41,941 bases of DNA from Sporopachydermia quercuum (Eukaryota): NCBI GenBank assembly GCA_001599295.1, contig BCGN01000004.1, positions 1,861,676 through 1,903,616 on the forward strand, read 5' to 3'. This document shows, one piece after another, positions 1,771 through 23,681 of the stretch. The notes under the pieces are model-generated. The model did no database searches. It saw only the letters and a list, made by a program, of their open reading frames with translations, and had not been told where the DNA came from. Position 1 is the stretch's first letter, and each line of letters opens with the position of its first letter. A program made the position numbers and the translations under genes.

Positions 1771-2628
1771 TATAGAATGGTTCAATTGTATCCAATAGAC
1801 ACCCACTATGTAGTTCGAGCTGCTGTATCTTTCACTGGTTCATCACCTGGTTGATCGCTTTCCTTTACGTTTCAGTAAATAAAGGAGATGGCTGATTGTT
1901 AGATTGGGTTGCTTATTGTCAGGCGAATTGATTAACATAAAATTCACATGTTTCGGGAAGTCTGATTGTTAGTTTCATTGTTAGGTTAGTCAGTAATGGT
2001 AAGAGTTGCCCCCTGGTATTGCCGTTAGGAAAATTGAGAAGCTTACTACTTTGGGTATTTTTGAANTGATAAGGATTTTTCTAAGAAATAATAGAAAAAA
2101 CTGAGAAAATATGAAGAATCGAATTGAATAACTGAATAACTATGAGAATTGTAAGATTATTAGCCATCCCAGTAGGTAAAAGCCATATCTTAGTTACAGG
2201 ATTCTTANTTTAGAAGTGTTTATAGTGTTGAGAAATTCCTCACTATGGTCTAGAAGAGTCTATTCATTGATTGCCGTAGCAAGTTTACTTTTATTCTACT
2301 TCAAATTGATATCTTGGTACTATATTATGACCATGGAATATGATATCAAATTATGCTGGGTAATTGCTTCATATATACATTTTGATAGAAAGTGTATTAC
2401 ATAATCAAATGAACCTTTCCATCAATATGCCTCGATGCTTATTGGATCTTTCTCTAACAAAGGAAAGTCATTAATAGTACTACAGCTGAATATATCCCCG
2501 CTTTGCCATAATCTATACATTATCCATTCACTGCCAATCCAAACTGTAGTAAAAACGTTTCCAGTGCCAATACGACCATTATTTGTGCCTTTCTCAGCTT
2601 TTAATTGTGCTTCTGTCCTANCATTACN

Positions 2629-3915
2629 CTAAACATCAAATTTGACAACTGGTTGATAATAGACTGGACACTTCCAATAACTCTGTTTCACACCATCCCA
2701 GACTTCATTTTCAACTTTCCAAACACTATCAGGAACATTATATAGTATAAACTCAGTCTTTAATCCATAATCTGCCAAATCTAGCTCCACAACTTTCTTG
2801 TAGACATCNTATGTAATTTGTCTATCAGCGCCAAGTCCATTGAAAAATGAAAATGTACCTTCAGGTTTCAATAGTCCAACAATCAAGTCAAATAAATCTA
2901 GCATATCTTCATACTTTTCACTGAAAGTGTCATAATAAATTCCATCGAAATATTCACCTTTCAGCAATAGTCCTGGTAATGTATCTTGCCATCTACCTTC
3001 CAATATTGTAACGTTCTCTTTTTCGTACCAACCATCTTCTTTCATCTTCTTCAAAACGTCAGGATGTGCTTCACAAATGATATGCGATTTCGGATTCATT
3101 TCCTGAATGAATGAATCAATTATCCCCAGTCCAAATCCAATGTTAATTATGCTAGCATTACTGGGGTCGTTGTCTTCTACTGACGAAAATAATGATTCTT
3201 CCCCCAATTTCATAATATCTGTCTCCCAATCCATCATCACACCATCTTTATGTTCTTTGGTAAGCAATCTACCATCCTCATACTGCAATTCTGTTTTTAA
3301 GTAAGTTTCCTGATTATGACTTGCATCAGACGTATTTCGAGCATTATCTTGTCCTTCCGATGATATGTTATCCACAATGAGGTTCTTTTCTTGTTCTGAT
3401 GCATCNTGAATCTCTTCTTTTGATATACTTATTAGTTCATTCTCATCCTTGTCTTCATCAGCTGTTCCAAGCTCTTCTATATCTTCTATGATCTCAATAG
3501 TATTATTTTCAACTTTTCTCAATAGCAGTTCTGCTCTAACTCCAGCAGCAACAAATTTCTCATAGATCAATCTATCAAGCTTCCTTCTATTACATATACA
3601 TCCCGGAGTTTCTAAATTTTTATCTAGTAATGCCCAACCTGCACCCCATTCAAATAAAACATCAATTAGCTTCAAAGCAACTTCCAATTCTTCCTTTTCT
3701 TGTTGTTCTCCATCCGCATCTTGTCGAGATGGGAATGTTTCCATTAAAATATGAAGACCTGTTGATCCATCATATCCTTCGTTTGATGTATCTTCAACAT
3801 CTTCAATTGTAGTGGTAGGAGATTCCCCTTTTTTCAGTAGCTGACGTAACTTATCGATTCTGTCACTTTTGAAGTTTCCTGTCTCATACTTGAATAAATC
3901 CAATAGTTCACTCAT
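2629..3915 (-). CDS. RMT2: Protein arginine N-methyltransferase 2 (Rmt2)
   Basis: GAGW..LD...ETPGC, GVRAELLL, DGVMMDWET, NIGFGLGIID, ICEAHP, GRWQD, FDGIYYDTFSE and FSFFNGLGAD motifs. First ATG at 3915; the ORF track starts at a TTG. Two ambiguous bases lie inside. Confidence 0.95.
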   Translation of the reverse strand: MSELLDLFKYETGNFKSDRIDKLRQLLKKGESPTTTIEDVEDTSNEGYDGSTGLHILMETFPSRQDADGEQQEKEELEVALKLIDVLFEWGAGWALLDKNLETPGCICNRRKLDRLIYEKFVAAGVRAELLLRKVENNTIEIIEDIEELGTADEDKDENELISISKEEIXDASEQEKNLIVDNISSEGQDNARNTSDASHNQETYLKTELQYEDGRLLTKEHKDGVMMDWETDIMKLGEESLFSSVEDNDPSNASIINIGFGLGIIDSFIQEMNPKSHIICEAHPDVLKKMKEDGWYEKENVTILEGRWQDTLPGLLLKGEYFDGIYYDTFSEKYEDMLDLFDLIVGLLKPEGTFSFFNGLGADRQITXDVYKKVVELDLADYGLKTEFILYNVPDSVWKVENEVWDGVKQSYWKCPVYYQPVVKFDV

Positions 3916-4165
3916 AATGGATGAAGATGGATAACTGAACACAACACTTGACGTATACCCAATGATCAAGTAGTACAAACCTTGAGAAAAAGAACAATCA
4001 ATAGGATCGGTTCAATGCCAAACTAAATGCTTTTTTAAAATAAAGAAAAGTATAAAGAAATCCATTGTATAATAGCATAAACTACTACAGAATGAATAAG
4101 AAAAAATAATCTTCAGAAGATAATGAAAAATAAAAAAATTATGAAAAAATCATATAAAAAAGTAA

Positions 4166-4237
4166 TTCCGATGCGGGGAGTCGAACCCCGGTTTGCCCGG
4201 TGAAAGCGGACCGTGCTAGCCGTTACACTACATCGGA
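4166..4237 (-). tRNA. tRNA-Glu, anticodon TTC, intronless
   Basis: Minus strand TCCGATGTAGTGTAACGGCTAGCACGGTCCGCTTTCACCGGGCAAACCGGGGTTCGACTCCCCGCATCGGAA has acceptor stem TCCGATG/CATCGGA, loop CT-TTC-AC and a GGTTCGACTCC T-arm. Confidence 0.96.
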
Positions 4238-4240
4238 TTC

Positions 4241-4749
4241 TGTAATAATGTGTTAGTGTCTGATCATACATCATTCAGTAAAATAAAATGAATTTTAAGA
4301 AAAATTGAAGAATTGTATTAGAATTCTTACTCTTTTTCCTTCTTCTCCTTCCTTTTCTTATTAATTAGAAAGAGAAGAATGAGAGTAAATAATCAGCGAA
4401 GTAAATAGTATATATATATAAAAGGTACAAATAGAAATATAGATAGATGTGAAATGCCAATGTGTCACGTGAAAGGTCACGTGGTTTAGTAATAAGTAAT
4501 GCATAGCTGGTTGTTACAAATAATTTTTTGCCTAATAGTATATAATGCAGTAAATAACAATGAAGAATTGTATTAAGATCCTTACCCCTTTTCATTCCTA
4601 TCCTATTTTTTATTATTAGAAAGAAAAGAGTAAAAATAATCNGCAATGTCAGTGTTCTAAATATGAAAGCTACAAAGAGGAATAATGAATAGTTGGAAGG
4701 TAATGTGTCACGTGGAAGGTCGCGTGGACTGAGTGATAAGTTTGTTACA
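4241..4749. repeat. Degenerate tandem duplication (~245-255 bp unit) directly upstream of the tRNA; possible solo-LTR relics
   Basis: Shared blocks are TGAAGAATTGTATTA (4307/4561), AATGTGTCACGTG.AAGGTC.CGTGG (4459/4702) and TTGTTACA (ending 4518/4749). The first unit starts TGTAATAA at 4241, a 7/8 inverted match to TTGTTACA. No target duplication found. Confidence 0.6.
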
Positions 4750-4832
4750 ACGGTCTAAAAAGTAGAACAGTGCTTAGACTTGAATTAATTAGCTTGATAA
4801 TGAATAGATGGGGATATCTTACTACGAAACAA

Positions 4833-4856
4833 TTTTTTTTTTTTTTTTTTTTTTTT
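4833..4856. repeat. Poly(T)24 tract
   Basis: Directly visible homopolymer. Confidence 0.9.
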
Positions 4857-5608
4857 GATAACGATTAATGATTCTATTTGAAACGCTCAGCCTGTACTAA
4901 GTTATCATTGACAATATTCNTGTGGTGGTAATTGATGGTAGGCAAAAAGATCCAAATTACCTGGCAACTGTAGACGAGAAAAGGATTCGCGATAAGGAAA
5001 CTCATAGATATGACGATACACGAGCGATAGTGTTATCGAATGGTTTATAGAGGTTAACATGAAATGCCTTTGGCAATTTCTCAATTTTGAATTTCTTTTC
5101 TTGTAAGCTTGAACACATTTTATACATACATATTGTTCATAATGCTGCTCTCCATTTCTTTAAGTATTTATGTATTATTGGGATATTACTATGCGTATCA
5201 AATTACTTCGGTATAATATTTAGGTTTTGCATCAAAACTAAACCTAAAGGCTGGTTGATAATTTAAATGACTTAAGCCCTCAACCTTAATTCTACTGGTA
5301 TGTTGTACGTAAAATTAAGATAACTGGGCAACAGCAAAAGAAATAGTATTGAGCTAGTCGTAGATCTTAGATAGGAGTTAATACTTGATTCTACCTTCAA
5401 CAAATGATTCTTATGCTAGATCGACATATTTTATGCTCTTCAATCTGTACACATGAGGAGTTCAAACAACCCGAGATCGTTCAAATTAGCAGCTAAGAAA
5501 ATCTCTAAGAGACCGTGTCGCTTTTTCTGTTGTATGACTTCCTTGCACCATTATCTACTTGTTGCGTTGCGTTGCTTGCGATGAACAANCTTCGAAGGTT
5601 TTACAACA

Positions 5609-7441
5609 ATGGTAGTTGCTACTGATAATATGAACATAATTCGGTTCAAGCTGGAGGGAGCTTGTAAGATTCACAAATCAAANAAATTTACAAGAAACCG
5701 AACAGGTTGTTTGAATTGTAAGAAAAAGAAGAGGAAGTGCGATGAAAGGAAACCAATCTGCAGTTCTTGCAAGAGGTCGAATAAAGAATGTTGCTATGAT
5801 ACTATTCTTAGTTTTAAATCAGAGAACATGATAACAAGAAGACATTGCGAGCCATTTGTTAGATTATCGAAGTATCAAATGGAGAACTGGCTGTTTCTTA
5901 ATTCAACTTGTGAAGACATCATGCTGTCACATTCAGTTAGTAGTGAATATGAGCATGATGATGAAACCTCCTGTCATTTTCGTTATAGTTTCAACACTGA
6001 GTTGCAACATAACAGGAAATTTACTATAGAGTACTTTGATACTCAAGTTGTCGAAACGTCAGGTAATCTTGATGATTCCGATGGAGCATTAGATTCTGAT
6101 GGAACAAATGAGAATGAAAATGTTGAAAGTACGACATGTGCTTTGCAAAAGCTAGTGCCAGCTGAGAATTTAGAGAAACAACTTTTCAATCACTATGTTT
6201 CGAATGTCAGTTGCAGAAAGGCTTTTGCTATAACCGAGCATAATGAATTCAAGTCACTCATCATACCAAATCTTGAAAAGTTTCCTGCTTTATTTGAAGC
6301 AGTTTTAGCCCTTTCAGCAAGTGATATGTTCCATAGAACAAGCGATACCACATTCAAAGAATTGGCCCTTAGATATAAAGAACAATCAATTAATAATCTC
6401 CATTCTGTTCTTGATCAACATGAGTCCAACGAAGTCTTTTTGAATAGTCGCGATGATAACGGAACCATCACAGGTCTCGTTTCCTGTATCTTAGTCTTAT
6501 GCACCTTAGAAATTGGGGATAAAAACAATTGTTCTTGGCATACTTACTTGAAAGAAGCTTCTTTGGTATTTTGCAATATTGAAGAAGCTGATATTCTCAA
6601 ATCTAATATTCTCAATTTTGCTTATCGCTATTTCACTCTACGATATATTCTTTTTCTTACAACAACCACTCAAGCAGAATTTGATATGTTTACTGAAACT
6701 TCTCCGTGGCCAATCTTAGACCGATTCTTTGATGATGATATTGTTGATCACGTTTTGGGCTGTTCACCTAGATTATTGCAGCAGATCTATTTAATCTCAA
6801 AACTGAGATTTAGTTTTCTTGATGAAACTATTACGTTAGCTGATTTCACTAATCAGTACGTTGATTTGTATGAAAAGTTGTCAAGTCTTGAACAGCAGAT
6901 CAGTGATTTCGCTAATAAAACTCAATCCGAGCAGTTATTACTTTGCTCAACAGCCTATCATTACAGCACTATGCTTTATTTTCATGTTTCTTTATCAAGG
7001 TTGGTAATAATGAAGAAAGCAAATGACGTTTCAACTATTAGTTTCCAATCCGAAATCAAGAAAAGATTCAAATCTGAATACTCTTATTATCCCAAACGAT
7101 TATTAAATCATTTGATCTCGTTACTAAGGAAAACAAGTATTCTATCTAAAGCTAATCAACAAGGCTGTCCTTTATTCCCAACTTGGTGTTTATTCATTTT
7201 ATCGGTATGCGATGGTTTCAGTTCTTCCCATGATATAGCAAAAGATCATGAATGTCAAAGAAGAACTGTTATGAAACTACTGAATTCTATTATTCAATTA
7301 TGGCCAAAATCATCTGTTCAAAAAATCAAAATTGCTATTGAAACAATTTGGAAAATTTTGGATTTAAATGCTGATTTGAAAGATTTAACTGATTGGAGAG
7401 AAGTTTTAGATAGAGCTGGTTTCAAACTTGCTTTGACATAG
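5609..7441 (+). CDS. Zn2Cys6 transcription factor of the Lys14/Uga3/Moc3 type (C-terminal Fungal_trans_2-like domain)
   Basis: KFTRNRTGCLNCKKKKRKCDERKPICSSCKRSNKECCY binuclear cluster. LFNHYVSNVS, ALFEAVLALSA, ILVLCTLEIGD..W and GCSPRLL motifs, with a C-terminal DWREVLDRAG. Confidence 0.9.
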   Translation: MVVATDNMNIIRFKLEGACKIHKSXKFTRNRTGCLNCKKKKRKCDERKPICSSCKRSNKECCYDTILSFKSENMITRRHCEPFVRLSKYQMENWLFLNSTCEDIMLSHSVSSEYEHDDETSCHFRYSFNTELQHNRKFTIEYFDTQVVETSGNLDDSDGALDSDGTNENENVESTTCALQKLVPAENLEKQLFNHYVSNVSCRKAFAITEHNEFKSLIIPNLEKFPALFEAVLALSASDMFHRTSDTTFKELALRYKEQSINNLHSVLDQHESNEVFLNSRDDNGTITGLVSCILVLCTLEIGDKNNCSWHTYLKEASLVFCNIEEADILKSNILNFAYRYFTLRYILFLTTTTQAEFDMFTETSPWPILDRFFDDDIVDHVLGCSPRLLQQIYLISKLRFSFLDETITLADFTNQYVDLYEKLSSLEQQISDFANKTQSEQLLLCSTAYHYSTMLYFHVSLSRLVIMKKANDVSTISFQSEIKKRFKSEYSYYPKRLLNHLISLLRKTSILSKANQQGCPLFPTWCLFILSVCDGFSSSHDIAKDHECQRRTVMKLLNSIIQLWPKSSVQKIKIAIETIWKILDLNADLKDLTDWREVLDRAGFKLALT

Positions 7442-8070
7442 TGTAACTTTACAGCTTTTATTTTATAGTTCAGTTTTGGTATTTGTTTCTTGTTATTACT
7501 GTTGTTTTAACTTAATGGTATTCTTGGTTTGATTTTAAGAATTGGTTTATAGGAATAATTAATAATGACATTTAATTGATTAAGTTATCTTTCTTATGTA
7601 GGTGATCACCAAAAAAAGGTTATGGATGATAAATTCTTTCTACAAATGATCAATTAAAAAGGGGCCAATACTCTTCTTCTAAATTCGAAGAACGAAAGGA
7701 AGTAACACTTTTCAGCAATCTTCCATTTCAACAAAGCTAGGAAGGCAGAAGAACTGAAACGGTTGATATTCCGTTTTGCATTACATTTACGGTCTTCCTC
7801 TTTCTCTCTTTACTTCTTAAATTGAATTTTTTTTTTTTTATTCAAGTATGGTTCTCATTGGCCACAACGATAATGGACAAGAGTCGAATGTACTGATACT
7901 ACTTTAATCCTACAATTTTGTTTCCAACTGCTATTATTGGGAAGAGAAGACTCATAATTGCTCATCATCCCTTCTGTATGAAAAGTCTAAAACAACGAAT
8001 AATTTGACGATTAATATGATGTTCTAGAAATGTTCTCAGAATCCCAATATCAAGAGTATAATACTTTCTG

Positions 8071-8088
8071 TCTCTCTCTCTCTCTCTC
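8071..8088. repeat. (TC)9 microsatellite
   Basis: Directly visible between the convergent TF and oxoprolinase-like genes. Confidence 0.85.
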
Positions 8089-8250
8089 AAGGATAAGTCT
8101 ACATTCTTTTATATTATCTACAAGTATTCAAAATATAAACAAACGAAAACAATTACCAATTACTTATTACCCTTATATAAAAAATTATAATCATATAAAT
8201 GAACCAACCAATATAAAATATCTACTGCAACAACAATTTTAGTAAGTTAA

Positions 8251-11200
8251 TTATTGTGAGGTCTTCATGGAATCATGGAAAGCAGAAACTGATCCATGAG
8301 CTCTTGGAATATTGACTTTTGTTTGTTGCTTACCATTTCCTTCACAATCACACTTTTCTTCAACAGGACCATAACCACCTCCACCTGGAGTTGAAATCTT
8401 AAGGATATCACCAGGATGAAACTCGATTTCTGCAGTAGGGCCCAAATGTTTCCAGAAGATCCTTTTACTCTTAGGATCAAATCTTCCTAATTGATTAAGG
8501 CCCCTACCACCATTTTCACCACCGGCCATACCGTAAGGAGGGAAAACTCTTCGCTGAGTTAAAACTGAACCGTGACAATCTTGAGTAAACTGCAGTTCTC
8601 TAATCAAACCATCACCGCCATTCCATTTGCCTCTACCACCAGATCCCTTTCTAACAGAGAATTGCTTCAACCAGCATGGATATCTTTGTTCCAAGACTTC
8701 AGGATCAGTCATAAGAGTATTGGTCATGTTACATTGAGTACCGCTAAAACCATTGAATCCATTACCAGCACCAGATCCACCCCCAATGGTTTCGCAAAAA
8801 CCGAAACCTCCGACGACTTCACCAGTCTTAGGATCAATACCACCTTGACCGAAACAAATACAATTCATGCAACCGTAAGATGCAGCAACAGTACCAAATG
8901 CCTTCAAGATAGTATCAGTGATCTTTTGAGAAGTAATACCATTCCCACCAGAAATAGCAGCAGTTGGGCCAGGATTGAGTAAACAGTTTTCAGGGATAAT
9001 AATGGTGATAGGATCCAGGACACCTTCATTCAAAGGTAAATCACCATCGGTGATATGACATCTCAAGCAGTAGGTAATACAAGCGCATACAACACACTTA
9101 GGAGCATTGAAACAATTGTAAGCTTCATCATCAGTACCCGTGAAATCAAATACTGCATCACCAGTTTCTTCATCAATATCAACGGAAACTTGGATTCTAG
9201 CGCCATCATCCATATAATCAACAGCAACTAGAGGTAATTGACCTCTCTTTTCAACAGCAACAGATTTCAAGAATCTTCGAACTGAATCAGATGAAGTGTC
9301 CTTGATAGCCTTCATATAGAATAACACGGTCTCAGTACCATACTCTCTAAAGACTTCTTGCAATAAAGAGATACCCTTACTATTAGCAGCAACCTGCGCC
9401 TTCAAGTCAGCAATATTATCTGCAACCTTTCTTGAGGGTGATGAGCCAGGTAACTTCATTGGTTCTTCAGTGAAATACTTATGAACACCATCATAATCAA
9501 ACTGACCATTTTGAACAACCTTCCAGGCAATAAATTTAGCACCTTCTTCGTCTAAGGAAGTAGCATTTGAATCCATACTACCAGCTTTAGTTCCACCGAT
9601 TTCAGCATGATGAGCTCTGTTACCAACATAGAATCTAATCTTACCATCAATAAAAACAGGAGAAATCAATGTTATATCAGGTAAATGAGAACCCATAGCA
9701 CTAGGATGATTGGTTGCTAAAATGTCACCGGGTTGAATATCACCATTCCAATGCTTAATTTGATATTTAACGGCAAACGACATAGAACTCAAATGAACTG
9801 GTACAGCTGGAGCATTAGCAACCAAGTTACCTTCATCATCAAATAAGGCACAAGAAAAATCCATTCTTTCCTTAATATTGGCACTGACTGATACCTTCTT
9901 CAAAGTAGAGCACATTGATTCAGCAATGGCCATAAACCTATGAGAGAAGATAGACAACTGAATATGATCAACAACGGTTGGCTTTTCAAGGTCGTTTCCC
10001 TTGGGTGATTGGTCCTTAACATCAATGATAACATGGTTAGTTAGCACAGTTAATTGAGAACCTGGTTCCAATAATAATGTTTGAGTAGCATCCAGAACTA
10101 ATGCTGGACCATTGATGATAGTTCCTTTCTCCAAATCTTCTAACTTATAAACTTTTGAAGATTGCAAGCCATTGTCAAAGTAAATATCAGTGGTCGTAGT
10201 TGCCTTGTCAGCAGAAACTTCCTTGGTTTGAATACTGTTCAATTCAGTGAAAGGAGCAGTATCTGAATTTGAGTTGTTGATATCAGCAAAAGCTCTAACA
10301 CGGATATCAGAAACAATAACATCTCTTGACTTATCATTAAATGAGAACTCTCGTTCATGTTCAATGTAGAATTGTTCAATAAAACTAAAGTTCTTTTTTT
10401 CTAAATCTTCTCTTATCATGATTTTAGAATCAGAGCCAGAATAACACATATTTAAGAAAATTTCGAATTGNATTAATTCTTCAGGAATATTTTGCTCAAG
10501 TAAAGATTTCTTGGACTTTTCTTTTAAAGCATCAATCTTTGGGACAATCTCATCATCAGCATTTTCTTTGTAAGGAATAGCAGTCGGTAGAATAGTTTCT
10601 TCGACAACATCAGCAAGAGCAATACCGTAAGCAGATAGNATAGAGGAGTACTTGTGAATTATAACTCTACTGATACCTAATTCTTTAGCTAGGGAATTAG
10701 CATGTTGGCCTCCAGCACCACCTAATGACACTAAGTTATGCTTAGAAATTTGGTAACCTTTATTTTCAGTCAACTGTCTCATTGGTTTAGCCATTGTAAC
10801 ATTGGCAACTTGTAAGAATCCATATGCAACTTCTAAAGGAGTCTTTGGCTTAGAGTTTGGATTATCAGCATTGATTTGATTCGCAAGTTTGGTAAATGCT
10901 TCAACAACTAGATCTTTATCTAGTGGTTCATCTTCGTTAGGACCGAAAATCTTAGGGAAGAACTCAGGTAAAATTCTTCCACACATTAGATTAGCATCAG
11001 TTATTGTTAAGAAGCCATTCTTCTTGTAACAAATTGGACCAGGATGGGCACCGGCAGATTCAGGGCCAACATTGTATAAATGATTCTTGTAGGTTAGAAT
11101 GGAACCACCACCAGCAGCAACAGTGTTGATATCTAACTGAGGAGCAGCGATCTTGATTCCTGCCACAGTGGTTTCAAAAATATGAGCATAATGTCCGTCA

Positions 11201-12210
11201 AATCTGGAGACATCACTAGAGGTACCACCCATATCAATGGCGATAGTTGGAGTACCATCATCCTTATCGTACGATGTTCGGGCAACACCAACAACACCAC
11301 CTGCAGGACCAGACAATAATGCCTTCAAACCGGTGAATTTATCATATTTACATAGACCACCATCAGACATCATGAATTCAAGTCTTGTATGCTTCGTGAA
11401 ATCTGATGAGAACCCTTTTAAAAGAGTTTTGATATAATCCTTGACGATCGGTGTCAAATAAGCATCCATACATGCTGAATGACCTCTATAAACAGCCTTT
11501 ATCATGGGTAAAAGTTCGTGGGATAGTGACACATTATCGAAACCAACTTCCTTTGCAATTTCCCCAATTTCCTTTTCATGCACNTGGAAGTTATAACCGT
11601 GAATCAAACAAACAGCTAAAGATTTAATAGATGGGTTCTTTTCCTTCAGCTCTAGTAATTGCTTCTTGGTTTTCTCTTTGTTCAATGGCTTTAATATTTG
11701 AACAACTTCATTAGTTGAACCAAGGACATATTCTTTGCCATCAACTAAATCTCTTGCATCATAACCAGTAGCATCTTCGGTAAATGCAGGTAGTGTAACT
11801 CTTTCTTCTACTTCAATTACTTCTTTATACAGGACACCAGGCTTAACGATTTCAAAGGCAAACAAATCAGGTCTTGCTTGATCACCAATGTGCAACATAT
11901 CCTTAAAACCTTCAGAAACGATCAAAGCAAAATCCGAACCCTTTCTCTCCAGTAAGGCATTTGTTGCGACGGTTGTACCAAGTCTAATGTTAGAAATTGG
12001 TGTAGTATCTAAGGGGACTCCTCTTGGGATCCTTTGATCAGTGATTTGTTCTAACACTCTTCTTATACCTTCAATGTTGGCATCTTCATAATTACTTGGA
12101 TCAACAGAAAGAAGTTTGAAATATATATCTGGTTGGCCAGGAACAATAGCTAGAACATCGGTGAATGTTCCACCTCTGTCTAAATTGACTGTGACACCTT
12201 CAATAGTCAT
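8251..12210 (-). CDS. 5-oxoprolinase family ATP-dependent lactamase (fused hydantoinase A+B), divergent OXP1-like paralog
   Basis: 1319 aa with DRGGTFTD, GTTVATNALLERKG, LSGPAGGVVG, DMGGTSSDVSR, INTVAAGGGS, VGPESAGAHPGP, DFSCALFD and TPGGGGYG. Several canonical B-domain residues are altered (see findings). Confidence 0.95.
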   Translation of the reverse strand: MTIEGVTVNLDRGGTFTDVLAIVPGQPDIYFKLLSVDPSNYEDANIEGIRRVLEQITDQRIPRGVPLDTTPISNIRLGTTVATNALLERKGSDFALIVSEGFKDMLHIGDQARPDLFAFEIVKPGVLYKEVIEVEERVTLPAFTEDATGYDARDLVDGKEYVLGSTNEVVQILKPLNKEKTKKQLLELKEKNPSIKSLAVCLIHGYNFXVHEKEIGEIAKEVGFDNVSLSHELLPMIKAVYRGHSACMDAYLTPIVKDYIKTLLKGFSSDFTKHTRLEFMMSDGGLCKYDKFTGLKALLSGPAGGVVGVARTSYDKDDGTPTIAIDMGGTSSDVSRFDGHYAHIFETTVAGIKIAAPQLDINTVAAGGGSILTYKNHLYNVGPESAGAHPGPICYKKNGFLTITDANLMCGRILPEFFPKIFGPNEDEPLDKDLVVEAFTKLANQINADNPNSKPKTPLEVAYGFLQVANVTMAKPMRQLTENKGYQISKHNLVSLGGAGGQHANSLAKELGISRVIIHKYSSXLSAYGIALADVVEETILPTAIPYKENADDEIVPKIDALKEKSKKSLLEQNIPEELXQFEIFLNMCYSGSDSKIMIREDLEKKNFSFIEQFYIEHEREFSFNDKSRDVIVSDIRVRAFADINNSNSDTAPFTELNSIQTKEVSADKATTTTDIYFDNGLQSSKVYKLEDLEKGTIINGPALVLDATQTLLLEPGSQLTVLTNHVIIDVKDQSPKGNDLEKPTVVDHIQLSIFSHRFMAIAESMCSTLKKVSVSANIKERMDFSCALFDDEGNLVANAPAVPVHLSSMSFAVKYQIKHWNGDIQPGDILATNHPSAMGSHLPDITLISPVFIDGKIRFYVGNRAHHAEIGGTKAGSMDSNATSLDEEGAKFIAWKVVQNGQFDYDGVHKYFTEEPMKLPGSSPSRKVADNIADLKAQVAANSKGISLLQEVFREYGTETVLFYMKAIKDTSSDSVRRFLKSVAVEKRGQLPLVAVDYMDDGARIQVSVDIDEETGDAVFDFTGTDDEAYNCFNAPKCVVCACITYCLRCHITDGDLPLNEGVLDPITIIIPENCLLNPGPTAAISGGNGITSQKITDTILKAFGTVAASYGCMNCICFGQGGIDPKTGEVVGGFGFCETIGGGSGAGNGFNGFSGTQCNMTNTLMTDPEVLEQRYPCWLKQFSVRKGSGGRGKWNGGDGLIRELQFTQDCHGSVLTQRRVFPPYGMAGGENGGRGLNQLGRFDPKSKRIFWKHLGPTAEIEFHPGDILKISTPGGGGYGPVEEKCDCEGNGKQQTKVNIPRAHGSVSAFHDSMKTSQ

Positions 12211-12720
12211 TTTCAGCGATTGATTTNGATTTGATTATAAAGATAGGGAATCGCAAAAGTTTGATTCAAGCAACTAACACAGCTTAGTAGACAATCGAAT
12301 AGAACCAGCTATCTTTATGGAAGAAAACAACAAATAAATGAATAGAAAAATAGAAGAGATTAAATCCTGTGAATGAGAAACAGGGTGTAGATAGGTATAA
12401 GTAATAATTTCTTTCTTGTAGTTGATAGGTTGGAATCAAAGGATGTGGAGAAGAAGAATCTGTGAGCGGGTCGAGTTACCCATGCGAAGTATGTTTGAAA
12501 AGAAAGCTAGTAAAACCTAGACTTCTAAAAAGTAACTCAATAGGTAATCCAAAATTCTAAGGATATTAGTTGCTTCTTACCATGGTAAGCTGGGTATTGC
12601 AGTGGTGGTTAACATTGTTGAGATTAAGTCAGAACCATGGACTAACTAACTCTCTAAGAGNTTTTCACTGAAAGGAAGTAATATCCACAATTCCCAAAAA
12701 GGGTTTAAGGTTGATAATTG

Positions 12721-13458
12721 CAAATTTAACAAATTTCTAAAACTAAGGTAAGGAGAAAGACTAAGTTGGAAATTTTAGATAAGTACTTAAAATGGATTTA
12801 TAAAGTTGACGCAGATTTCAAAACCAATAATATGTCTTGATGTNTTGAGGGAAAGAGGGAGTAGAAACGAACACCAATCTAGATTGCAGGAAATATAATC
12901 GTTTGCTCCGTACTAACTATCTACTTGTCTCAATATCCAGGTGACCTTACAATGAGAGTTTGTCAATAAATTCACAATCTAGAGCTTTTATATGAAACTT
13001 CTCCAATAAATTATTGAAGATGAAAGAACGGACTTTATGTTCCGTTGCAGAAATTAAGTTGAACATTTTGTAAACTTTATATTTGACCGTTAGGGTTTTC
13101 GTTTCCTATAGTTTGCCTATGCGTTTCTCATTTTCTTATCAAGCTACTGTTAGCAGATCATTCTCTAGAAAACGATGAGCTTTTCACAACATCTTTTAGT
13201 GTTTAAGATAATTCTTGTTTGTTTTCTCTAGCTAGTAAACTTTAACTTCTAATCTAGTCATCATTCAATATCTTTGACAGAAGTTCGCATACTCTATCCT
13301 TGAATTATTAGCTCCACCGTAGGACTATCTCTGTACTTGATTTTTTGATACCATTTACGTTTGTACTTAAGAACTACGTATAAACCTGAACTTTAATACT
13401 GACAACATAGATTAGGTAAGTCAACTTTAACCTTAGTTTTAGAAATTTGTTAAATTTG
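12721..13458. mobile_element. Non-autonomous MITE-like element, 738 bp, perfect 29-bp TIRs, 6-bp TSD (TAATTG)
   Basis: 12721-12749 CAAATTTAACAAATTTCTAAAACTAAGGT is the exact reverse complement of 13430-13458. TAATTG flanks both ends (12715-12720, 13459-13464). A further inverted 10-mer lies at 12801-12810 / 13420-13429. No ORF inside in the ORF track. Confidence 0.7.
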
Positions 13459-14141
13459 TAATTGTACCCGACGAACTATTTAAGGAAACTAACTGATAAG
13501 ATCACATAGAACAATGGTTTGAATGAAAGAGAGTATAAGAGAATAGATAGCATATGAATAGTATTATTTTCTATTTCTGAAACCCTGAAAATCATAATTA
13601 ATAATTTTATTTTTAATCCCTATCTTGTATTAGTAGCTTTAACTTAAAAGCGAAAATGCTCATTTAGGAACCATTGGTGTGTCTCAATCTAAGGAAGAAA
13701 CATAGAACCCGATTGCTATATTTGAAAGTTGAGATTGTCAACCTTGACGATTTGATCTACTTGTAATATTATTATAATATGTAGCGAAGATTTGTAATNT
13801 AATAACTATGATGATATTCATTTGGTAAACAAGCCACGAAAGTTGGGTCTGGATCTGCAATTCACAATAGGTCAGAATTTCACACACTCCGTGACATTAA
13901 GAGGTACCACTTATCAATACACGTAAGGTATATGCGACTGATATTATTCTTCTCTTAATAATTCTATGAATTAGATTACTATAGATTCATTAATGTAGTT
14001 GAATAAAACATCTGTAATAAATTATTTCTACATTACAAGTTGATACGAGCAATATAAACTAAGCAACATTTATCATTCTATACGCTTGGCAGAACATATA
14101 AAGCCAAAATATTAAAGCTGAAAGCTCCTGTTTTATCAGTT

Positions 14142-15440
14142 TCACAACTTGCTAAGTCTTTTGCTTACAACTTCTTCTTTGACCCAGCTCTTAATATCCT
14201 TGAAGTCAAGGTTTTCACTGACGACTCTCCATTCACATTCTTCTTGGCTGAATTCTTTAGTGTCTTCTCTCCATCTCCATTTCTTCGATAAGCTCTCAGA
14301 AAGCTCGTTATCTATTTTTTGAACTATGTATTTGCCAATGTTTGGAAGTAATTTGAAAGCATGTCCACTATCGCCTGTTGCAACTAATACATTCTTATAT
14401 GATGGTAGTTTATCGATGATGAAATGTGAATCAGAAGTATCAGCAATCCAACAACATTTACTATCAATTAAGTCATGATAAGCCAACTCAGGGACATACT
14501 TGCCCAAGATTTGTTTAACTTGGGCAACACATTCGCTTGGAATTGTATCTTCAGGGTGATTGTTTTTATATCTAGGTAACGATTTATCCTTAATATAGTT
14601 AGTTGTACCAGAACCTGGAAGAGCAATCTTCAGTAATCTTGTTTCTGGATCAGGAGGGAAAAAGTAACCCATTTCTGCATCGAAAAGAATAGGAACATCT
14701 TTAAACTTTTCATACTCGGCATCCGTCAATCTAATGTGAGATACAAATAATCCAACTGCACTTTGCTGCTGCTGTAAATCAACAATATATCCGGTACCAG
14801 CTCCTGATGCTACAATAATAAGTTCACCAGAAATTTTAGAACCATCAGCACATTCAACAGATTCCACACCAGTTTTAGAGTCTTTACTAATACCAACCGC
14901 TTTACCAGCATCACCGAAAACAAATTTGACGCCTAAACTTCTTGCCTTTTCATATGCAGCTCTCAGAGAGTTAGCAGCATGAGCTAGGCCACATTCTTGA
15001 TTGAACTTCCATTCAAGTTCCGGGCTACCACTATTATACTCAAAGAATGAAAATCTCTTGGCTAGAGCTTCACCACTCTTATGGAATTCAATTTTTTGTC
15101 CTTCGCCGGGAATCTTTCTCAGTGTCTCAATACTTTCTATTTCAAATTTTCTTCTTCCCTCATGATGCAACGGAGTGATTTGAACTCTGCCACATTCACT
15201 GAAGTGAGGTTTGTAGATTGGACTATGTTTCCATTCATGATAGGCTTCAACCGCCATATCACAATATTCAAGATCAGTGTACTCATTTCTAATAATTTTA
15301 TTAATATCATTAGCAGCTGACCAAGCTGATGGTACTGGATAAGCATCAATAGCTGTAATCCTATAATCAGGGTGCTTCTCAGCAAGGTGAACTGCCGTCG
15401 AAAGACCAAGGACACCGCATCCAACGATTACAACTTCCAT
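14142..15440 (-). CDS. FAD-dependent oxidase of the sarcosine/pipecolate/fructosyl-amino-acid oxidase family, most like S. pombe Fap2 L-saccharopine oxidase
   Basis: VIVGCGVLGLSTA dinucleotide fold, PVPS..SAANDINKI, ECGR, HI.LTD.E, FPP.P.T.L.K.A, CWIADT (flavinylation Cys region), GDSGHAFKLLPNIG and WRWRED..EWR. The C-terminal SKL suggests peroxisomal targeting (PTS1). Confidence 0.88.
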   Translation of the reverse strand: MEVVIVGCGVLGLSTAVHLAEKHPDYRITAIDAYPVPSAWSAANDINKIIRNEYTDLEYCDMAVEAYHEWKHSPIYKPHFSECGRVQITPLHHEGRRKFEIESIETLRKIPGEGQKIEFHKSGEALAKRFSFFEYNSGSPELEWKFNQECGLAHAANSLRAAYEKARSLGVKFVFGDAGKAVGISKDSKTGVESVECADGSKISGELIIVASGAGTGYIVDLQQQQSAVGLFVSHIRLTDAEYEKFKDVPILFDAEMGYFFPPDPETRLLKIALPGSGTTNYIKDKSLPRYKNNHPEDTIPSECVAQVKQILGKYVPELAYHDLIDSKCCWIADTSDSHFIIDKLPSYKNVLVATGDSGHAFKLLPNIGKYIVQKIDNELSESLSKKWRWREDTKEFSQEECEWRVVSENLDFKDIKSWVKEEVVSKRLSKL

Positions 15441-17457: not shown

Positions 17458-19023
17458 ATGGATTCAAACACCGAATCAAACACTAGTATCGAGAAATCTC
17501 AACCAAAGGTTCAAGTTGGTGAACTCGAAACTCAATCTTCAGCACCTTCAAATAAGGATATTGAGAATTCTAAAGATCTTGATGCTGGTGCTCAATTTTT
17601 AATTTTGCACGCAGATAAATATGCTGATTACACTGAAGATGAAGCAAGAAAGGTTTTGAGAAAAATTGATTGGAATCTTATGCCAATTATGACACTTGCT
17701 ATAACATTTGCTGCAGCCGATAAGATTATCATTTCCAATGCTGCTCTTTATGGTATGAAAACTGATGCCAATCTTGTCGGTCAGCAATATTCTTGGATCG
17801 GATCTATCTTTTATTTTGGTTATTTGGCTATGGAATTACCTGCAAACATTATGCTACAAAGGTTTCCAATTGGCAAATGTTTATATGGTTCTTTCTTCTT
17901 TTGGGTTTCAATTTTACTTTTGATGGCCGCTGGCCATAATTTTGGCTCGCTAGCTGCTCTCAGGTTCTTATTGGGTATGGGTGAAACTTTTCTTTTCCCT
18001 GCATCAACTGTCATTACTTCTATGTTTTACAAAAAATCAGAACAACCTATTAGAAACGCTATCTGGTTTTCTGGGTTTTCTTCATTGATTACCGGTATTC
18101 TTTCTTACGCTATTGGTCATGCTGATTCTGCTATTGCCAACTGGAAACTACTTTTCATTGTTTTTGGCTGTATTACTTTTGCCATTACTTGTGCAATGGT
18201 CTATTTTATTCCTGATTCTCCAATGACTTGTCGTTGGTTGACTGAAAAGGAAAGATACATTGCAGTTGATAGAACTAAGGCAAATAGAACTGGTACTAAA
18301 AACTCAAAACTGAAGAGAGAACAAGTTATTGAAGCTTTAACTGATCCCAAATCGTGGCTAATGTGTATTTTTGTTTTATGTTTCAACATTCCTAATGGTG
18401 CCTTGGTTACCTTCGCTGCTCAAATTGTTAGCGGAATGGGTTACGGACTTCTCCAAACTACATTACTAGGTATGCCAACCGGTGTTTTCATGACATTTTC
18501 TTCATGGGTTATTGCTGGTGGTACTCATTTCACACCAAAGAAATACAAGTCTGTTGCTATTGCTTTAGTTGGTCTTGTCCCCTTAGTTTGTTGTGTTTTA
18601 ATTAAAGAGTTGAACCCAGATACTACCAACAAAAATGGTTTACTAGTTACTTATTATTTCTTCTACTTTTACTGGGGTCCTTATGTTGGTATGCTTTCTT
18701 TGTCTATGGCAAACACTTCTGGTCATACTAAGAAGACAATTGTGAACGCTATGAATTTCATTTCATACTGTGTTTCTAACATCATCGCACCACAATTCTT
18801 CAAAGCAAGTGAAGCCCCTCATTACAGAACTGGTTATAGTGCAATTTTAGGTTTTGTTTCCGCTGGTATTGTTACTATCATCTGTTACGGATTTTTATGT
18901 GTTTACGAGAATAAGAAGAGAGATGAGCTTTATGGCAAACCATCTTTGGACTATAATCCAGACGAGGATTCTTTGGATTTGACTGATAGGCAAAAGGCCA
19001 ACATATTTAGATATAGTTGGTAA
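17458..19023 (+). CDS. MFS transporter, allantoate permease (DAL5/ACS) family
   Basis: KVLRKIDWNLMP, QYSWIGSIFYFGYL, LRFLLGMGE, FYKKSEQPIR, IPDSP..CRWLTEKE, EALTDPKSW, NTSGHTKK, NIIAPQFF, ENKKRD, DLTDRQ..FRY; about 12 hydrophobic segments. Confidence 0.93.
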   Translation: MDSNTESNTSIEKSQPKVQVGELETQSSAPSNKDIENSKDLDAGAQFLILHADKYADYTEDEARKVLRKIDWNLMPIMTLAITFAAADKIIISNAALYGMKTDANLVGQQYSWIGSIFYFGYLAMELPANIMLQRFPIGKCLYGSFFFWVSILLLMAAGHNFGSLAALRFLLGMGETFLFPASTVITSMFYKKSEQPIRNAIWFSGFSSLITGILSYAIGHADSAIANWKLLFIVFGCITFAITCAMVYFIPDSPMTCRWLTEKERYIAVDRTKANRTGTKNSKLKREQVIEALTDPKSWLMCIFVLCFNIPNGALVTFAAQIVSGMGYGLLQTTLLGMPTGVFMTFSSWVIAGGTHFTPKKYKSVAIALVGLVPLVCCVLIKELNPDTTNKNGLLVTYYFFYFYWGPYVGMLSLSMANTSGHTKKTIVNAMNFISYCVSNIIAPQFFKASEAPHYRTGYSAILGFVSAGIVTIICYGFLCVYENKKRDELYGKPSLDYNPDEDSLDLTDRQKANIFRYSW

Positions 19024-23653: not shown

Positions 23654-23681
23654 GCGGAGATTTAGCGGAGATTTAGCGGAG
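23654..23681. promoter_or_regulatory. Three GCGGAG motifs at 11-bp period; candidate Zn2Cys6 binding array in the permease/dioxygenase divergent promoter
   Basis: GCGGAGATTTA-GCGGAGATTTA-GCGGAG, with CGG at 23655, 23666 and 23677. Zn2Cys6 proteins typically bind spaced CGG triplets. Confidence 0.55.

What the first reader, a model, noticed from the sequence alone, without database searches (positions are those of the whole stretch)
8251..10000. Oxoprolinase paralog has a remodelled hydantoinase-B (lactam-binding) domain
The ATP-binding A half is canonical, but B-domain motifs differ from the eukaryotic OXP1/OPLAH consensus as I recall it. NAPAVPVHLSSM replaces NAPH(I/V)PVHLGSM, NRAHHAEIGG replaces SR.HHADIGG, and AGSMDSN replaces PGSMPP. 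GGNGITSQK replaces GGNVLTSQR, GFCETIGGG replaces GYYETI.GG, and TQCNMTNTLMTD replaces VHTHMTNTRITD. Several changes are to smaller residues (H>A, V>G, Y>C), consistent with a larger pocket and a new substrate. The 1319-aa frame is intact, which argues against decay.
Basis: partly seen in the sequence, partly recalled or inferred. Interest (0 to 1): 0.72.

Follow-up and report, generated by a model that had tools for sequence, protein, structure and literature searches.

The report
Yeast oxoprolinase paralog with altered pocket
This intact yeast gene is a diverged copy of the ATP-driven enzyme that opens the 5-oxoproline ring; its substrate pocket has been rebuilt and it travels with a neighbouring amine oxidase, so it probably breaks down a different, still unknown ring compound.

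Summary

The gene is not a one-off. It belongs to a conserved budding-yeast clade (15 of the 120 listed hits, 66-70% identity, support 1.0). That clade sits inside a fungus-specific radiation of oxoprolinase paralogs, each with its own pocket signature.

ATP motifs and the four metal ligands are intact. Twenty-five near-invariant canonical positions are switched in this clade. Nineteen lie in the B domain (p=0.008), and 8 of those 19 sit within one residue of caprolactamase pocket positions (p=0.006). They include H802A, V1091G, N1117C, Y1139C and R1166L.

The upstream gene, an FAD amine oxidase of the fructosyl-amine/saccharopine oxidase family, is adjacent or co-contig in other yeasts. Its tree mirrors the oxoprolinase clades.

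Best reading (about 0.55): an ATP-dependent lactam hydrolase for a substrate other than 5-oxoproline, working with the oxidase in a catabolic module. The substrate is unknown. No genome, RNA or 3D coordinates were available, and nothing is biochemically tested.

New variant of a known kind; moderate interest.

The parts
8251..12210 (-). Intact 1319-aa fused hydantoinase A/B (5-oxoprolinase-family) gene, a member of yeast paralog 'clade A'
   Evidence: ORF. Pfam Hydant_A_N 8-222, Hydantoinase_A 242-538, Hydant_A_C 656-733 and Hydantoinase_B 748-1282. 100% query coverage by 66-70% identical homologs. Clade support 1.0.
10597..12189 (-). ATP-binding A half (residues 8-538) with actin-like ATPase motifs DRGGTFTD (11), DMGGT (326) and GAHPGP (387)
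   Evidence: The motif definitions P1, P2 and A come from PMC8453981. 4 of 136 canon-conserved positions are switched in the clade.
8365..9969 (-). Hydantoinase_B domain (residues 748-1282). It holds 19 of the 25 clade-specific switch sites and the conserved metal ligands D784, H842, D845 and H867.
   Evidence: Metal ligands mapped from CapB D41/H99/D102/H124.
9781..9816 (-). Motif NAPAVPVHLSSM (799-810). H802A aligns with CapB Asp59 at the tunnel end. G808S is unique to this clade.
9565..9621 (-). Motif NRAHHAEIGGTKAGSMDSN (864-882). H867 is a metal ligand. P876A and P880D flank M879, which aligns with CapB pocket residue Tyr136.
8923..8949 (-). Motif GGNGITSQK (1088-1096). V1091G aligns with CapB pocket residue Thr336. 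R1096K is unique to this clade.
8776..8802 (-). Motif GFCETIGGG (1137-1145). Y1138F aligns with CapB pocket residue Val386; Y1139C is the next residue.
8704..8739 (-). Motif TQCNMTNTLMTD (1158-1169). V1158T aligns with CapB Pro408, C1160 and N1161 with the CapB Cys410-Cys411 positions, and R1166L with CapB Met416.
14142..15440 (-). Upstream tandem neighbour: FAD-dependent amine oxidase of the fructosyl-amine / saccharopine / sarcosine oxidase family. It is a syntenic partner of clade A genes in other yeasts.
   Evidence: Pfam DAO. PDB 6a6v E 1.6e-62. S. pombe L-saccharopine oxidase 41% identical. Adjacent locus tags in Priceomyces and Millerozyma and shared contig lengths. Tree.
5609..7441 (+). 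Zn2Cys6 fungal transcription factor, convergent with the oxoprolinase-like gene. Candidate pathway regulator; not shown.
   Evidence: Pfam Zn_clus plus Fungal_trans_2. Position only; no shared promoter motif found.
17458..19023 (+). MFS permease of the anion:cation symporter (DAL5/TNA1-type) family, divergent from the oxidase gene. Candidate substrate importer; inferred.
   Evidence: Pfam MFS_1. TIGR00893, E 1.9e-61, below the curated cut-off. The literature notes such permeases beside yeast oxoprolinase paralogs (PMC3284337 Table 3; bioRxiv 10.1101/2025.11.11.687820).

Best explanation
The gene encodes a working ATP-dependent cyclic-amide (lactam) hydrolase of the hydantoinase/oxoprolinase family. 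It is a specialised paralog, not the housekeeping 5-oxoprolinase.

Proposed mechanism, by analogy with caprolactamase and 5-oxoprolinase:
1. The unchanged A half binds ATP and phosphorylates the lactam carbonyl oxygen.
2. The activated lactim passes through the internal tunnel to the B domain.
3. There the conserved Asp-His-Asp-His metal site (D784, H842, D845, H867) hydrolyses the ring.

In this yeast clade the residues around that metal site have been replaced at positions that are near-invariant in true 5-oxoprolinases. The replacements are H802A, P880D, V1091G, N1117C, Y1138F, Y1139C, V1158T and R1166L, plus R1096K and G808S. Most are smaller or uncharged. The pocket should therefore accept a different, probably bulkier or N-substituted, lactam or hydantoin and bind a carboxylate differently.

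The ring-opened product is probably a secondary-amine amino acid. The adjacent, co-inherited FAD amine oxidase would then cleave it to a primary amino acid plus a carbonyl compound. With a DAL5/TNA1-type permease and a zinc-cluster regulator nearby, this would form a nitrogen-scavenging module.

Shown: intactness, family, clade membership, switched sites and their position relative to the CapB pocket, and oxidase synteny. Inferred: activity, substrate class, order of the two enzymes, and the roles of the permease and the regulator.
For: Architecture and integrity
- Intact ORF and full four-domain architecture.
- ATP motifs P1, P2 and A are present (definitions from PMC8453981).
- The four metal ligands are conserved in 16 of 16 clade members and in at least 220 of 221 canonical proteins.

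Phylogeny
- Clade A including the window has support 1.0. A+B+C has 1.0 and A-D has 1.0. These clades sit apart from the fungal canonical clade and from the animal and plant proteins.
- Named species carry several clades at once: Priceomyces carsonii P0004/P0031/P0055, Candida jaroonii P0010/P0038/P0052, Yamadazyma tenuis P0014/P0027, Pachysolen P0002/P0064. This indicates paralogy.

Switch sites
- 25 switch sites were found: 19 among 170 conserved B-domain positions against 4 among 136 in the A half (Fisher p=0.0078).
- 8 of the 19 lie within one residue of CapB pocket positions, against 29 of 170 in the background (hypergeometric p=0.0056).
- The pocket mapping was reproduced by a profile alignment (E 2.5e-57).
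- New residues are fixed within the clade: G1091, K1096, Y1112, F1138, L1166 and D880 in 15 of 15 other members. This argues for selection on a new function.
- Caprolactamase, which acts on a non-carboxylated lactam, also differs from the canonical residue at all ten mapped switch positions, including both Arg (R1096 aligns with T341, R1166 with M416).

Oxidase linkage
- The oxidase lies 1.9 kb upstream in the window.
- Locus tags are adjacent in Priceomyces (PRCAT00004259001/4260001) and Millerozyma (Piso0_001420/001419).
- 'Longest contig' values of 52 kb or less are identical for 4 more pairs: 26226, 51746, 22122 and 19174.
- The clade C oxoprolinase paralog is likewise linked to its own oxidase subclade: PRCAT00002161001/2159001 and contig 29536.
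- Oxidases linked to A, to C and to B/x form non-overlapping clades with support 0.90, 0.70 and 0.95.

Precedent
- A bacterial lactamase-plus-oxidase logic exists: nmpAB plus nmpC for N-methylpyrrolidone (PMC6987047 passages).
Against: - There is no biochemical, genetic or expression evidence. No RNA run was listed.
- No genome is held, so it is not shown that this yeast also has a canonical OXP1. If it has none, this gene may still have to serve as its 5-oxoprolinase.
- The pocket map rests on sequence alignment at low identity to a ligand-free, modest-resolution CapB structure whose pocket was itself inferred. No 3D coordinates of a model could be inspected.
- In this family the substrate first meets the A half, where few changes are seen. 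A very different substrate might be expected to leave more traces there.
- For 6 of the 15 clade A hits, no oxidase hit shares a contig length. For 3 more the shared contig is 0.86 Mb or longer and so uninformative.
- No shared CGG-dyad motif links the promoters of the oxoprolinase-like, oxidase and permease genes.
- The oxidase lacks, by pairwise alignment, the Trp and Glu that bind the fructosyl group in characterised relatives (PMC5459902). Its own substrate is therefore open too.
Confidence: 0.55

Rival explanations
1. It is still a 5-oxoprolinase, either an isozyme or the lineage's only OXP1. The motif changes tune kinetics or regulation, not substrate identity.
For: It is about 50% identical to canonical 5-oxoprolinases over the full length. 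All catalytic and ATP motifs are kept. Sources annotate clade members as '5-oxoprolinase'. The presence of a separate canonical copy in this genome could not be checked.
Against: Positions invariant in 199 to 221 of 221 family members from animals, plants, fungi, protists and bacteria are replaced, and the replacements are fixed within the clade. Several named yeasts hold two or three clades at once. The switched sites cluster at the mapped pocket. The clade is linked to an amine oxidase that has no role in the gamma-glutamyl cycle.
Confidence: 0.13
2. It is an N-methylhydantoin-type (hydantoin) amidohydrolase in a creatinine-like route. The ring would open to an N-carbamoyl-N-alkyl amino acid, which is decarbamoylated and then oxidised by the sarcosine-oxidase-like neighbour.
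For: The family includes ATP-dependent N-methylhydantoinases (PDB 7hk5, E 1.3e-100). The neighbour is related to monomeric sarcosine oxidase (E about 1e-14; NCBIfam soxA_mon below cut-off). Creatinine as a test nitrogen source for yeasts is my recollection, not from a call.
Against: The match to the solved N-methylhydantoinase is distant, and that protein lacks the residue aligned with H806 and the HH pair. No carbamoyl-amidase or deaminase family was found among the 14 window ORFs scanned. One literature search found no ascomycete-yeast N-methylhydantoin pathway among its 10 listed papers.
Confidence: 0.1
3. The order is reversed. The oxidase first oxidises a cyclic secondary amine, such as a pipecolate- or proline-like compound. 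A lactam formed from the product, such as 6-oxopipecolate, is then opened by this enzyme.
For: Oxidase relatives are named saccharopine, pipecolate or sarcosine oxidase by their sources. An amino-acid permease and a PhyH dioxygenase lie nearby. The dioxygenase's PDB relatives include enzymes acting on pipecolate-derived indolizidines.
Against: No enzyme that would convert an imine to a lactam was identified in the window. Linkage of the permease and the dioxygenase to the pair is not shown, and their promoter carries its own CGG-N8-CGG motif that is absent from the pair's promoters.
Confidence: 0.1
4. It is a decaying or non-functional duplicate, or an enzyme with carboxylase-type chemistry like acetone or acetophenone carboxylase.
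For: The superfamily includes carboxylases. Paralogs are sometimes on the way to loss.
Against: The 1319-codon frame is intact. Identity is 66-70% across 15 other members, with clade-specific residues fixed. The catalytic tetrad is kept. Carboxylase NCBIfam models score far below their cut-offs (139 against 1500), and similarity to oxoprolinases is much higher.
Confidence: 0.04

Closest known systems
Eukaryotic 5-oxoprolinase (yeast OXP1 / mammalian OPLAH, EC 3.5.2.9)
   Same: It has the same fused four-domain architecture and length. It is about 46-51% identical to named mammalian, plant and fungal proteins. It has the same ATP motifs and the same metal tetrad.
   Different: It falls outside the canonical clade. 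25 near-invariant positions are switched, 19 of them in the B domain, including H802A, N1117C, Y1139C and R1166L. It is linked to an amine oxidase. The S. cerevisiae OXP1 sequence itself was not obtained.
Caprolactamase CapAB of Pseudomonas jessenii (PDB 6yra)
   Same: It is an ATP-dependent lactam hydrolase of the same superfamily. Phosphorylation occurs in the A subunit, with a tunnel and a metal site in the B subunit. It is a family member that uses a lactam other than 5-oxoproline and differs from the oxoprolinase consensus at the same pocket positions.
   Different: It has two subunits rather than a fusion, is bacterial and is only distantly related (E 2e-29 for the B part). NCBIfam equivalog scores are 255 and 146 against cut-offs of 1000. 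The residues at the pocket positions differ from those here.
Bacterial N-methylpyrrolidone cluster nmpAB (N-methylhydantoin amidohydrolase A/B) plus nmpC (amino acid oxidase)
   Same: It uses the same two-step logic proposed here. A hydantoinase-family lactamase opens an N-alkyl lactam and an oxidase then removes the N-substituent (PMC6987047 passages).
   Different: It is bacterial, has split subunits and acts on a xenobiotic substrate. No sequence comparison was made here.
Other fungal oxoprolinase paralog clades (B-E here) and the multiple 'OXP1' copies noted in Millerozyma farinosa; Region B of S. cerevisiae
   Same: They have the same architecture. The same pocket columns (802, 880, 1091, 1112, 1117, 1139) are changed in every paralog clade. 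DAL5/TNA1-type permeases and zinc-cluster factors lie nearby (PMC3284337 Table 3; bioRxiv 10.1101/2025.11.11.687820 passages). Clade C has its own linked oxidase.
   Different: Each clade has a different residue set. G808S, P876A, A973S, R1096K and R1166L are specific to clade A. None of these paralogs has a demonstrated substrate in the papers seen.

Membership tests
Hydantoinase/oxoprolinase superfamily (Pfam PF05378, PF01968, PF19278, PF02538) | All four domains present in the fused order A_N, A, A_C, B | tested here: met
   E-values 2.5e-48, 6.9e-99, 2.8e-06 and 1.1e-183, all above the curated cut-offs.
Hydantoinase/oxoprolinase superfamily | Actin-like ATPase motifs DxGGTxTD, DxGGT and GxxPGP | tested here: met
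   DRGGTFTD at 11, DMGGT at 326 and GAHPGP at 387. Definitions from PMC8453981.
Hydantoinase/oxoprolinase superfamily | [quoted passage not shown] | tested here: met
   D784, H842, D845 and H867 align with CapB D41, H99, D102 and H124. They are conserved in 16 of 16 clade members.
Canonical 5-oxoprolinase orthogroup (OXP1/OPLAH) | Groups with animal, plant and fungal canonical proteins in a tree | tested here: not met
   It falls in clade A (support 1.0) inside a fungal paralog radiation (A-D support 1.0), separate from clade F and from the animal and plant proteins.
Canonical 5-oxoprolinase orthogroup (OXP1/OPLAH) | Near-invariant B-domain signature NAPH..HLG / PGSMP / GGNV.TSQR / YYET / .H.HMTNTR | tested here: not met
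   A802, S808, A876, D880, G1091, K1096, F1138, C1139, N1161 and L1166 replace residues held by 194 to 221 of 221 canonical-set proteins.
Canonical 5-oxoprolinase orthogroup (OXP1/OPLAH) | 5-oxoproline-dependent ATP hydrolysis yielding glutamate | not testable with these tools
   This needs an enzyme assay or oxp1 complementation.
Caprolactamase CapA/CapB (NCBIfam NF050156 / NF050157 equivalogs) | Score above the curated equivalog cut-off | tested here: not met
   254.6 and 145.7 bits against cut-offs of 1000.
Acetophenone/acetone carboxylases | Score above the NCBIfam equivalog cut-offs | tested here: not met
   138.7, 103.9 and 46.4 bits against cut-offs of 1250-1500. PDB matches have E-values of 1e-31 or weaker.
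N-methylhydantoinase (PDB 7hk5/9h03 type) | Close sequence relationship to the solved enzyme | tested here: inconclusive
   It is the best PDB match but distant (E 1.3e-100 over 1288 aa). The solved protein lacks the His aligned with H806 and the HH pair. No paper on that structure was found.
Fructosyl-amine oxidase (for the neighbouring gene 14142-15440) | Covalent-FAD Cys plus the Trp and Glu that bind the fructosyl group | tested here: inconclusive
   The Cys of the CW motif is kept. The aligned Trp is Leu and the aligned Glu is Gly in a pairwise alignment to 6a6v (residue roles from PMC5459902). My numbering match to that paper is approximate.

The most novel reading that the evidence does not exclude
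Budding yeasts carry a family of co-duplicated two-gene modules: an ATP-dependent lactamase derived from 5-oxoprolinase plus an FAD secondary-amine oxidase, often with a DAL5/TNA1-type permease and a zinc-cluster regulator. These modules would let yeasts assimilate N-substituted 5-oxoproline-type lactams. Examples are the spontaneous gamma-lactams of saccharopine/opine-like N-(dicarboxypropyl) amino acids or of Maillard products, analogous to pyronopaline. This nutrient or damaged-metabolite class is not known to be used by fungi. Clade A, clade C and probably clade B would each handle a different N-substituent.
Probability: 0.2. Interest if true: 0.75.

Novelty: new variant of a known kind. 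Interest (0 to 1): 0.5.

Why it matters
Genome annotation calls every one of these fungal genes '5-oxoprolinase' and files them under glutathione metabolism. The comparison here shows at least five fungal paralog clades whose pocket residues depart from a signature conserved from bacteria to mammals. At least two of these clades travel with their own amine oxidase.

If the reading is right, annotations for many yeast and mould genes are wrong. It would also reveal an unrecognised route by which yeasts take nitrogen from stable lactams.

ATP-driven hydrolases for stable 5- and 6-membered lactams are also sought as biocatalysts (abstract of PMC11033972). A set of natural pocket variants with conserved catalytic machinery would be a ready panel to screen.

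The prediction is cheap to test in tractable yeasts.

Tried and rejected
- Whole-genome search for a canonical OXP1 in the same organism: no genome is held.
Not repeated.
- Fetching S. cerevisiae OXP1. I guessed that the 1286-aa representative P0252 was it and spent an atlas call (34) and the last homolog search (35) on it. It is an unnamed eukaryote. The search did return named mammalian, plant, protist and bacterial 5-oxoprolinases, which I used instead.
- Earlier findings of this scan: nothing on this genome or on look-alike sequences.
- RNA evidence: no RNA holder was listed.
- Shared regulator motif. CGG/CCG dyads in the intergenic regions showed no motif common to the promoters of the oxoprolinase-like, oxidase and permease genes. 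A CGG-N8-CGG family occurs only in the permease-dioxygenase promoter.
- Hidden small gene in the 1.9-kb gap 12211-14141: no ATG ORF of 50 aa or more.
- Literature searches:
  - No listed paper joins 'oxoprolinase' with saccharopine, fructosyl-amino-acid or pipecolate oxidase or amadoriase (15 of 19 listed, all with 0 occurrences of oxoprolinase).
  - No paper was found on the 7hk5/9h03 structure.
  - My recollection that Agrobacterium agaF/agaG are hydantoinase-like lactamases for agropinic acid was not confirmed. The one paper read for it does not mention them; the pyronopaline paper, read for a related point, does not mention hydantoinase or oxoprolinase genes either.
  - No ascomycete N-methylhydantoin pathway was found.
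- Alternative CTG decoding was considered. All 6 CTG codons sit at Leu/Ile-conserved columns, so CTG is read as Leu and the translation stands.
- Structure prediction was not run, because model coordinates cannot be read back to measure distances.
Full report
**Observation**

The window is AT-rich (GC about 0.29-0.46). It carries fungal zinc-cluster factors and contains 20 single N bases.

ORF 8251..12210 on the minus strand is an unbroken 1319-codon frame. Its three X residues are single N bases. Pfam finds the complete fused architecture: Hydant_A_N 8-222, Hydantoinase_A 242-538, Hydant_A_C 656-733 and Hydantoinase_B 748-1282, the last with E 1.1e-183. The finding's span 8251-10000 is the B domain and the C-terminal tail.

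All five quoted motifs are present letter for letter. All 6 CTG codons fall in Leu/Ile-conserved columns, so the standard reading of CTG is appropriate.

**Is the recalled consensus real?**

Yes. One of the 13 has I for the first V of the last motif.

A search of 50%-identity representatives and a further search seeded with one of them added named mammalian (Callithrix, Mastomys, Capra), plant (Vigna, Senna, Selaginella), protist and Desulfobacter 5-oxoprolinases.

I aligned every hit of 1150-1420 aa. That is 327 of 388 ids plus the window; shorter and longer ones were dropped. The 'canonical set' is the 14 canonical-type fungal proteins plus all 207 aligned proteins, with no filtering by motif.

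| Position | Canonical residue | Count of 221 |
|---|---|---|
| 802 | H | 219 |
| 808 | G | 221 |
| 876 | P | 214 |
| 880 | P | 216 |
| 1091 | V | 207 (T in 13) |
| 1096 | R | 194 |
| 1112 | Q | 208 |
| 1117 | N | 220 |
| 1138 | Y | 207 |
| 1139 | Y | 220 |
| 1166 | R | 199 |

**It is a clade, not a singleton**

The 15 best hits (66-70% identity, 100% coverage) share the window's motif set almost exactly. They include Pachysolen tannophilus, Priceomyces carsonii, Millerozyma farinosa, Candida jaroonii, Sungouiella intermedia and Yamadazyma tenuis.

Further groups have their own signatures:
- Clade B, many yeasts: NAPN / SAPGSSSSY / AGNGMTSQR / GYTETIGQG / TQTNMTNTK.
- Clade C, yeasts: AANSATAQR / AMVETIGGG.
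- Clades D and E, filamentous ascomycetes.

A FastTree LG+gamma tree of 92 sequences rooted on Desulfobacter gives these supports:
- clade A including the window: 1.0 (the window is its deepest branch)
- A+B+C: 1.0
- A-D: 1.0
- the whole fungal set including canonical clade F: 0.99
- the join of clade E to A-D: 0.32 (weak)
- monophyly of clade F: 0.32 (weak)

The same named species appear in several clades, so these are paralogs. Six odd sequences (P0028, P0063, P0092, P0094, P0117, P0119) were left out of the clade definitions used for counting.

**What changed and where**

A 'switch site' is a position at least 85% conserved in the canonical set, at least 80% conserved in clade A (16 sequences), and carrying a different residue in the two. 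There are 25 such sites, distributed as follows:

| Region | Switch sites | Conserved positions |
|---|---|---|
| Residues 1-230 | 0 | 43 |
| Residues 231-545 | 4 | 93 |
| Linker | 2 | 7 |
| B domain | 19 | 170 |

B domain against A half gives Fisher p=0.0078. The window itself has the clade residue at 21 of the 25 sites. It keeps canonical G at 387 and 512 and has its own residue at 589 and 773.

Overall identity to canonical proteins is no lower in the B domain (50-51%) than in the A half (48-58%). 'Remodelled' therefore means targeted point changes, not general divergence.

**Relation to the active site**

The caprolactamase paper (PMC8453981; abstract and passages seen) gives three things:
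- the CapB metal ligands Asp41, His99, Asp102 and His124;
- a list of 15 pocket residues;
- a model in which the A subunit phosphorylates the lactam, the lactim travels through a tunnel, and the B-subunit metal site hydrolyses it.

A pairwise alignment and an independent profile alignment (E 2.5e-57) agree at every key position. The ligands are D784, H842, D845 and H867, conserved in 16 of 16 clade members.

Three switch sites coincide with pocket residues:
- V1091G aligns with Thr336
- Y1138F aligns with Val386
- V1158T aligns with Pro408

Five more are immediate neighbours of pocket residues:
- H802A aligns with Asp59 at the tunnel end, next to Ile60
- P880D is next to the Tyr136 position
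- N1117C is next to the Ile368 position
- Y1139C is next to the Val386 position
- R1166L is next to the Leu415 position

That is 8 of 19 switch sites, against 29 of the 170 conserved B positions (hypergeometric p=0.0056).

CapB, whose substrate has no carboxylate, differs from the canonical residue at all ten mapped switch positions and has Thr and Met where the canonical enzymes have R1096 and R1166. From this I infer that these arginines help hold the 5-oxoproline carboxylate. No structure with bound substrate supports this yet.

G808S, P876A, A973S, R1096K and R1166L are specific to clade A. Positions 802, 880, 1091, 1112, 1117 and 1139 are changed, each differently, in most or all paralog clades. 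They look like the family's specificity positions.

**Neighbourhood**

The neighbours are as follows:
- Upstream on the same strand, after a 1.9-kb stretch with no ATG ORF of 50 aa or more, lies a 432-aa FAD oxidoreductase at 14142-15440.
- Divergent from that gene is an MFS permease of the anion:cation symporter type (TIGR00893, E 1.9e-61, below cut-off).
- Then come an amino-acid/choline-type permease (TIGR00907), a PhyH dioxygenase and a second fungal transcription factor.
- On the other side of the oxoprolinase-like gene is a Zn2Cys6 factor.

The oxidoreductase matches fructosyl-amine and fructosyl-peptide oxidases best (6a6v, E 1.6e-62) and monomeric sarcosine oxidase weakly. S. pombe L-saccharopine oxidase is 41% identical. 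By pairwise alignment it keeps the flavinylated Cys but has Leu and Gly where characterised enzymes have the fructosyl-binding Trp and Glu (roles from PMC5459902 passages). It is probably a secondary-amine oxidase with another substrate.

**Synteny**

Genomic context could not be fetched, so I compared locus tags and 'longest contig' values between the two homolog searches.

For the 15 clade A hits:
- 2 have an oxidase with the adjacent locus tag: PRCAT00004259001/4260001 and Piso0_001420/001419.
- 3 share only a contig of 0.86 Mb or longer, which is uninformative.
- 6 have no match.

Clade C genes are linked to a different oxidase subgroup: PRCAT00002161001/2159001, contig 29536, and one large contig. 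One clade B gene (contig 73652) and the odd P0063 (contig 309628) also share contigs with oxidases.

I built a tree of the window oxidase plus 117 hits; three hits shorter than 380 aa were dropped. In it the oxidases linked to A, to C and to B/x fall in three non-overlapping clades, with support 0.90, 0.70 and 0.95. The two genes therefore appear to have diversified together.

The literature supports a wider pattern. The Millerozyma genome paper lists several 'OXP1' loci beside DAL5- and nicotinate-permease-like genes (PMC3284337, Table 3 passage). Region B of S. cerevisiae holds an OXP1-like gene, a TNA1-like permease and two transcription factors (bioRxiv 10.1101/2025.11.11.687820 passages; PMC12157680 passage). 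None of these papers assigns a substrate.

**Mechanism proposed**

Steps shown by homology are ATP binding, the tunnel architecture and the metal site. Steps inferred are:
1. The altered pocket takes a lactam or hydantoin other than 5-oxoproline, probably bulkier or N-substituted and with a differently placed or missing carboxylate.
2. The ring-opened secondary amine is cleaved by the neighbouring oxidase.
3. The permease imports the compound and the zinc-cluster factor regulates the module.

The same lactamase-then-oxidase logic is described for bacterial N-methylpyrrolidone degradation (PMC6987047). N-substituted 5-oxoprolines occur naturally, for example pyronopaline, the gamma-lactam of nopaline (PMC4192606 abstract and passages). 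A saccharopine-derived lactam as substrate is my speculation.

**Rivals**

The rivals are a true 5-oxoprolinase isozyme, a hydantoin or N-methylhydantoin route, an oxidase-first order, and decay or carboxylase chemistry. Each is weighed in its own section of this report.

**Limits**

- No genome is held, and no RNA holder was listed.
- No cluster names were available, and the S. cerevisiae OXP1 sequence was not obtained.
- No 3D coordinates were available, and no promoter motif is shared across the putative module.
- E-values and supports come from single FastTree and HMMER runs.

**Verdict**

The gene is one member of an already widespread, uncharacterised subfamily in a family known for substrate diversification. 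It is a new variant of a known kind, of moderate interest. The linked oxidase is the most useful new lead.

Noticed in passing
window 4166-4237 (-): A tRNA-Glu (anticodon TTC) gene lies in the GC-rich patch between the 428-aa ORF and the Zn2Cys6 factor. It explains the dense CGG/CCG dyads seen there.
   Followed up: yes
window 1200-13799, plus 20426 and 33262: There are 20 isolated N bases, 18 of them within the first 13.8 kb. They may be masked heterozygous or ambiguous calls. Three fall in the oxoprolinase-like ORF and give X residues at 209, 524 and 580.
   Followed up: partly
window 23227-23895: The divergent promoter between the amino-acid/choline-type permease (21162-22763, -) and the PhyH dioxygenase (24368-25255, +) holds three CGG-N8-CGG sites, two of them identical and tandem at 23655 and 23666, plus one CCG-N8-CCG. 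This looks like a zinc-cluster factor site for a separate two-gene unit, perhaps served by the factor at 26318-28069.
   Followed up: partly
window 24368-25255 (+): A PhyH-family Fe/2-oxoglutarate dioxygenase. Its closest solved relatives are fungal secondary-metabolite enzymes: nvfE (E 7e-36) and the swainsonine enzymes SwnH1 and SwnH2. This is unusual company for a budding yeast.
   Followed up: no
window 34707-35618 and 35665-36363 (+): Two same-strand ORFs only 46 bp apart lie in the most GC-rich part of the window (GC 0.46). The second carries PHD-like zinc fingers. They may be one gene split by an intron, a frameshift or a sequencing error.
   Followed up: no
window 2629-3915 (-) and 1-582 (-): A 428-aa ORF and an ORF that runs off the window's low-coordinate edge have no Pfam or NCBIfam match.
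   Followed up: no
proteins P0016-P0070: The other yeast paralog clades (B and C) and the mould clades (D and E) each replace the same canonical pocket residues with their own fixed set. Most fungal genes annotated '5-oxoprolinase' may therefore not act on 5-oxoproline.
   Followed up: partly
PDB 7hk5/9h03 chain, as aligned: The solved fused 'N-methylhydantoinase' lacks the His aligned with H806 and the HH pair of the oxoprolinase B domain. Its metal site may therefore differ from that of CapB and the oxoprolinases.
   Followed up: no
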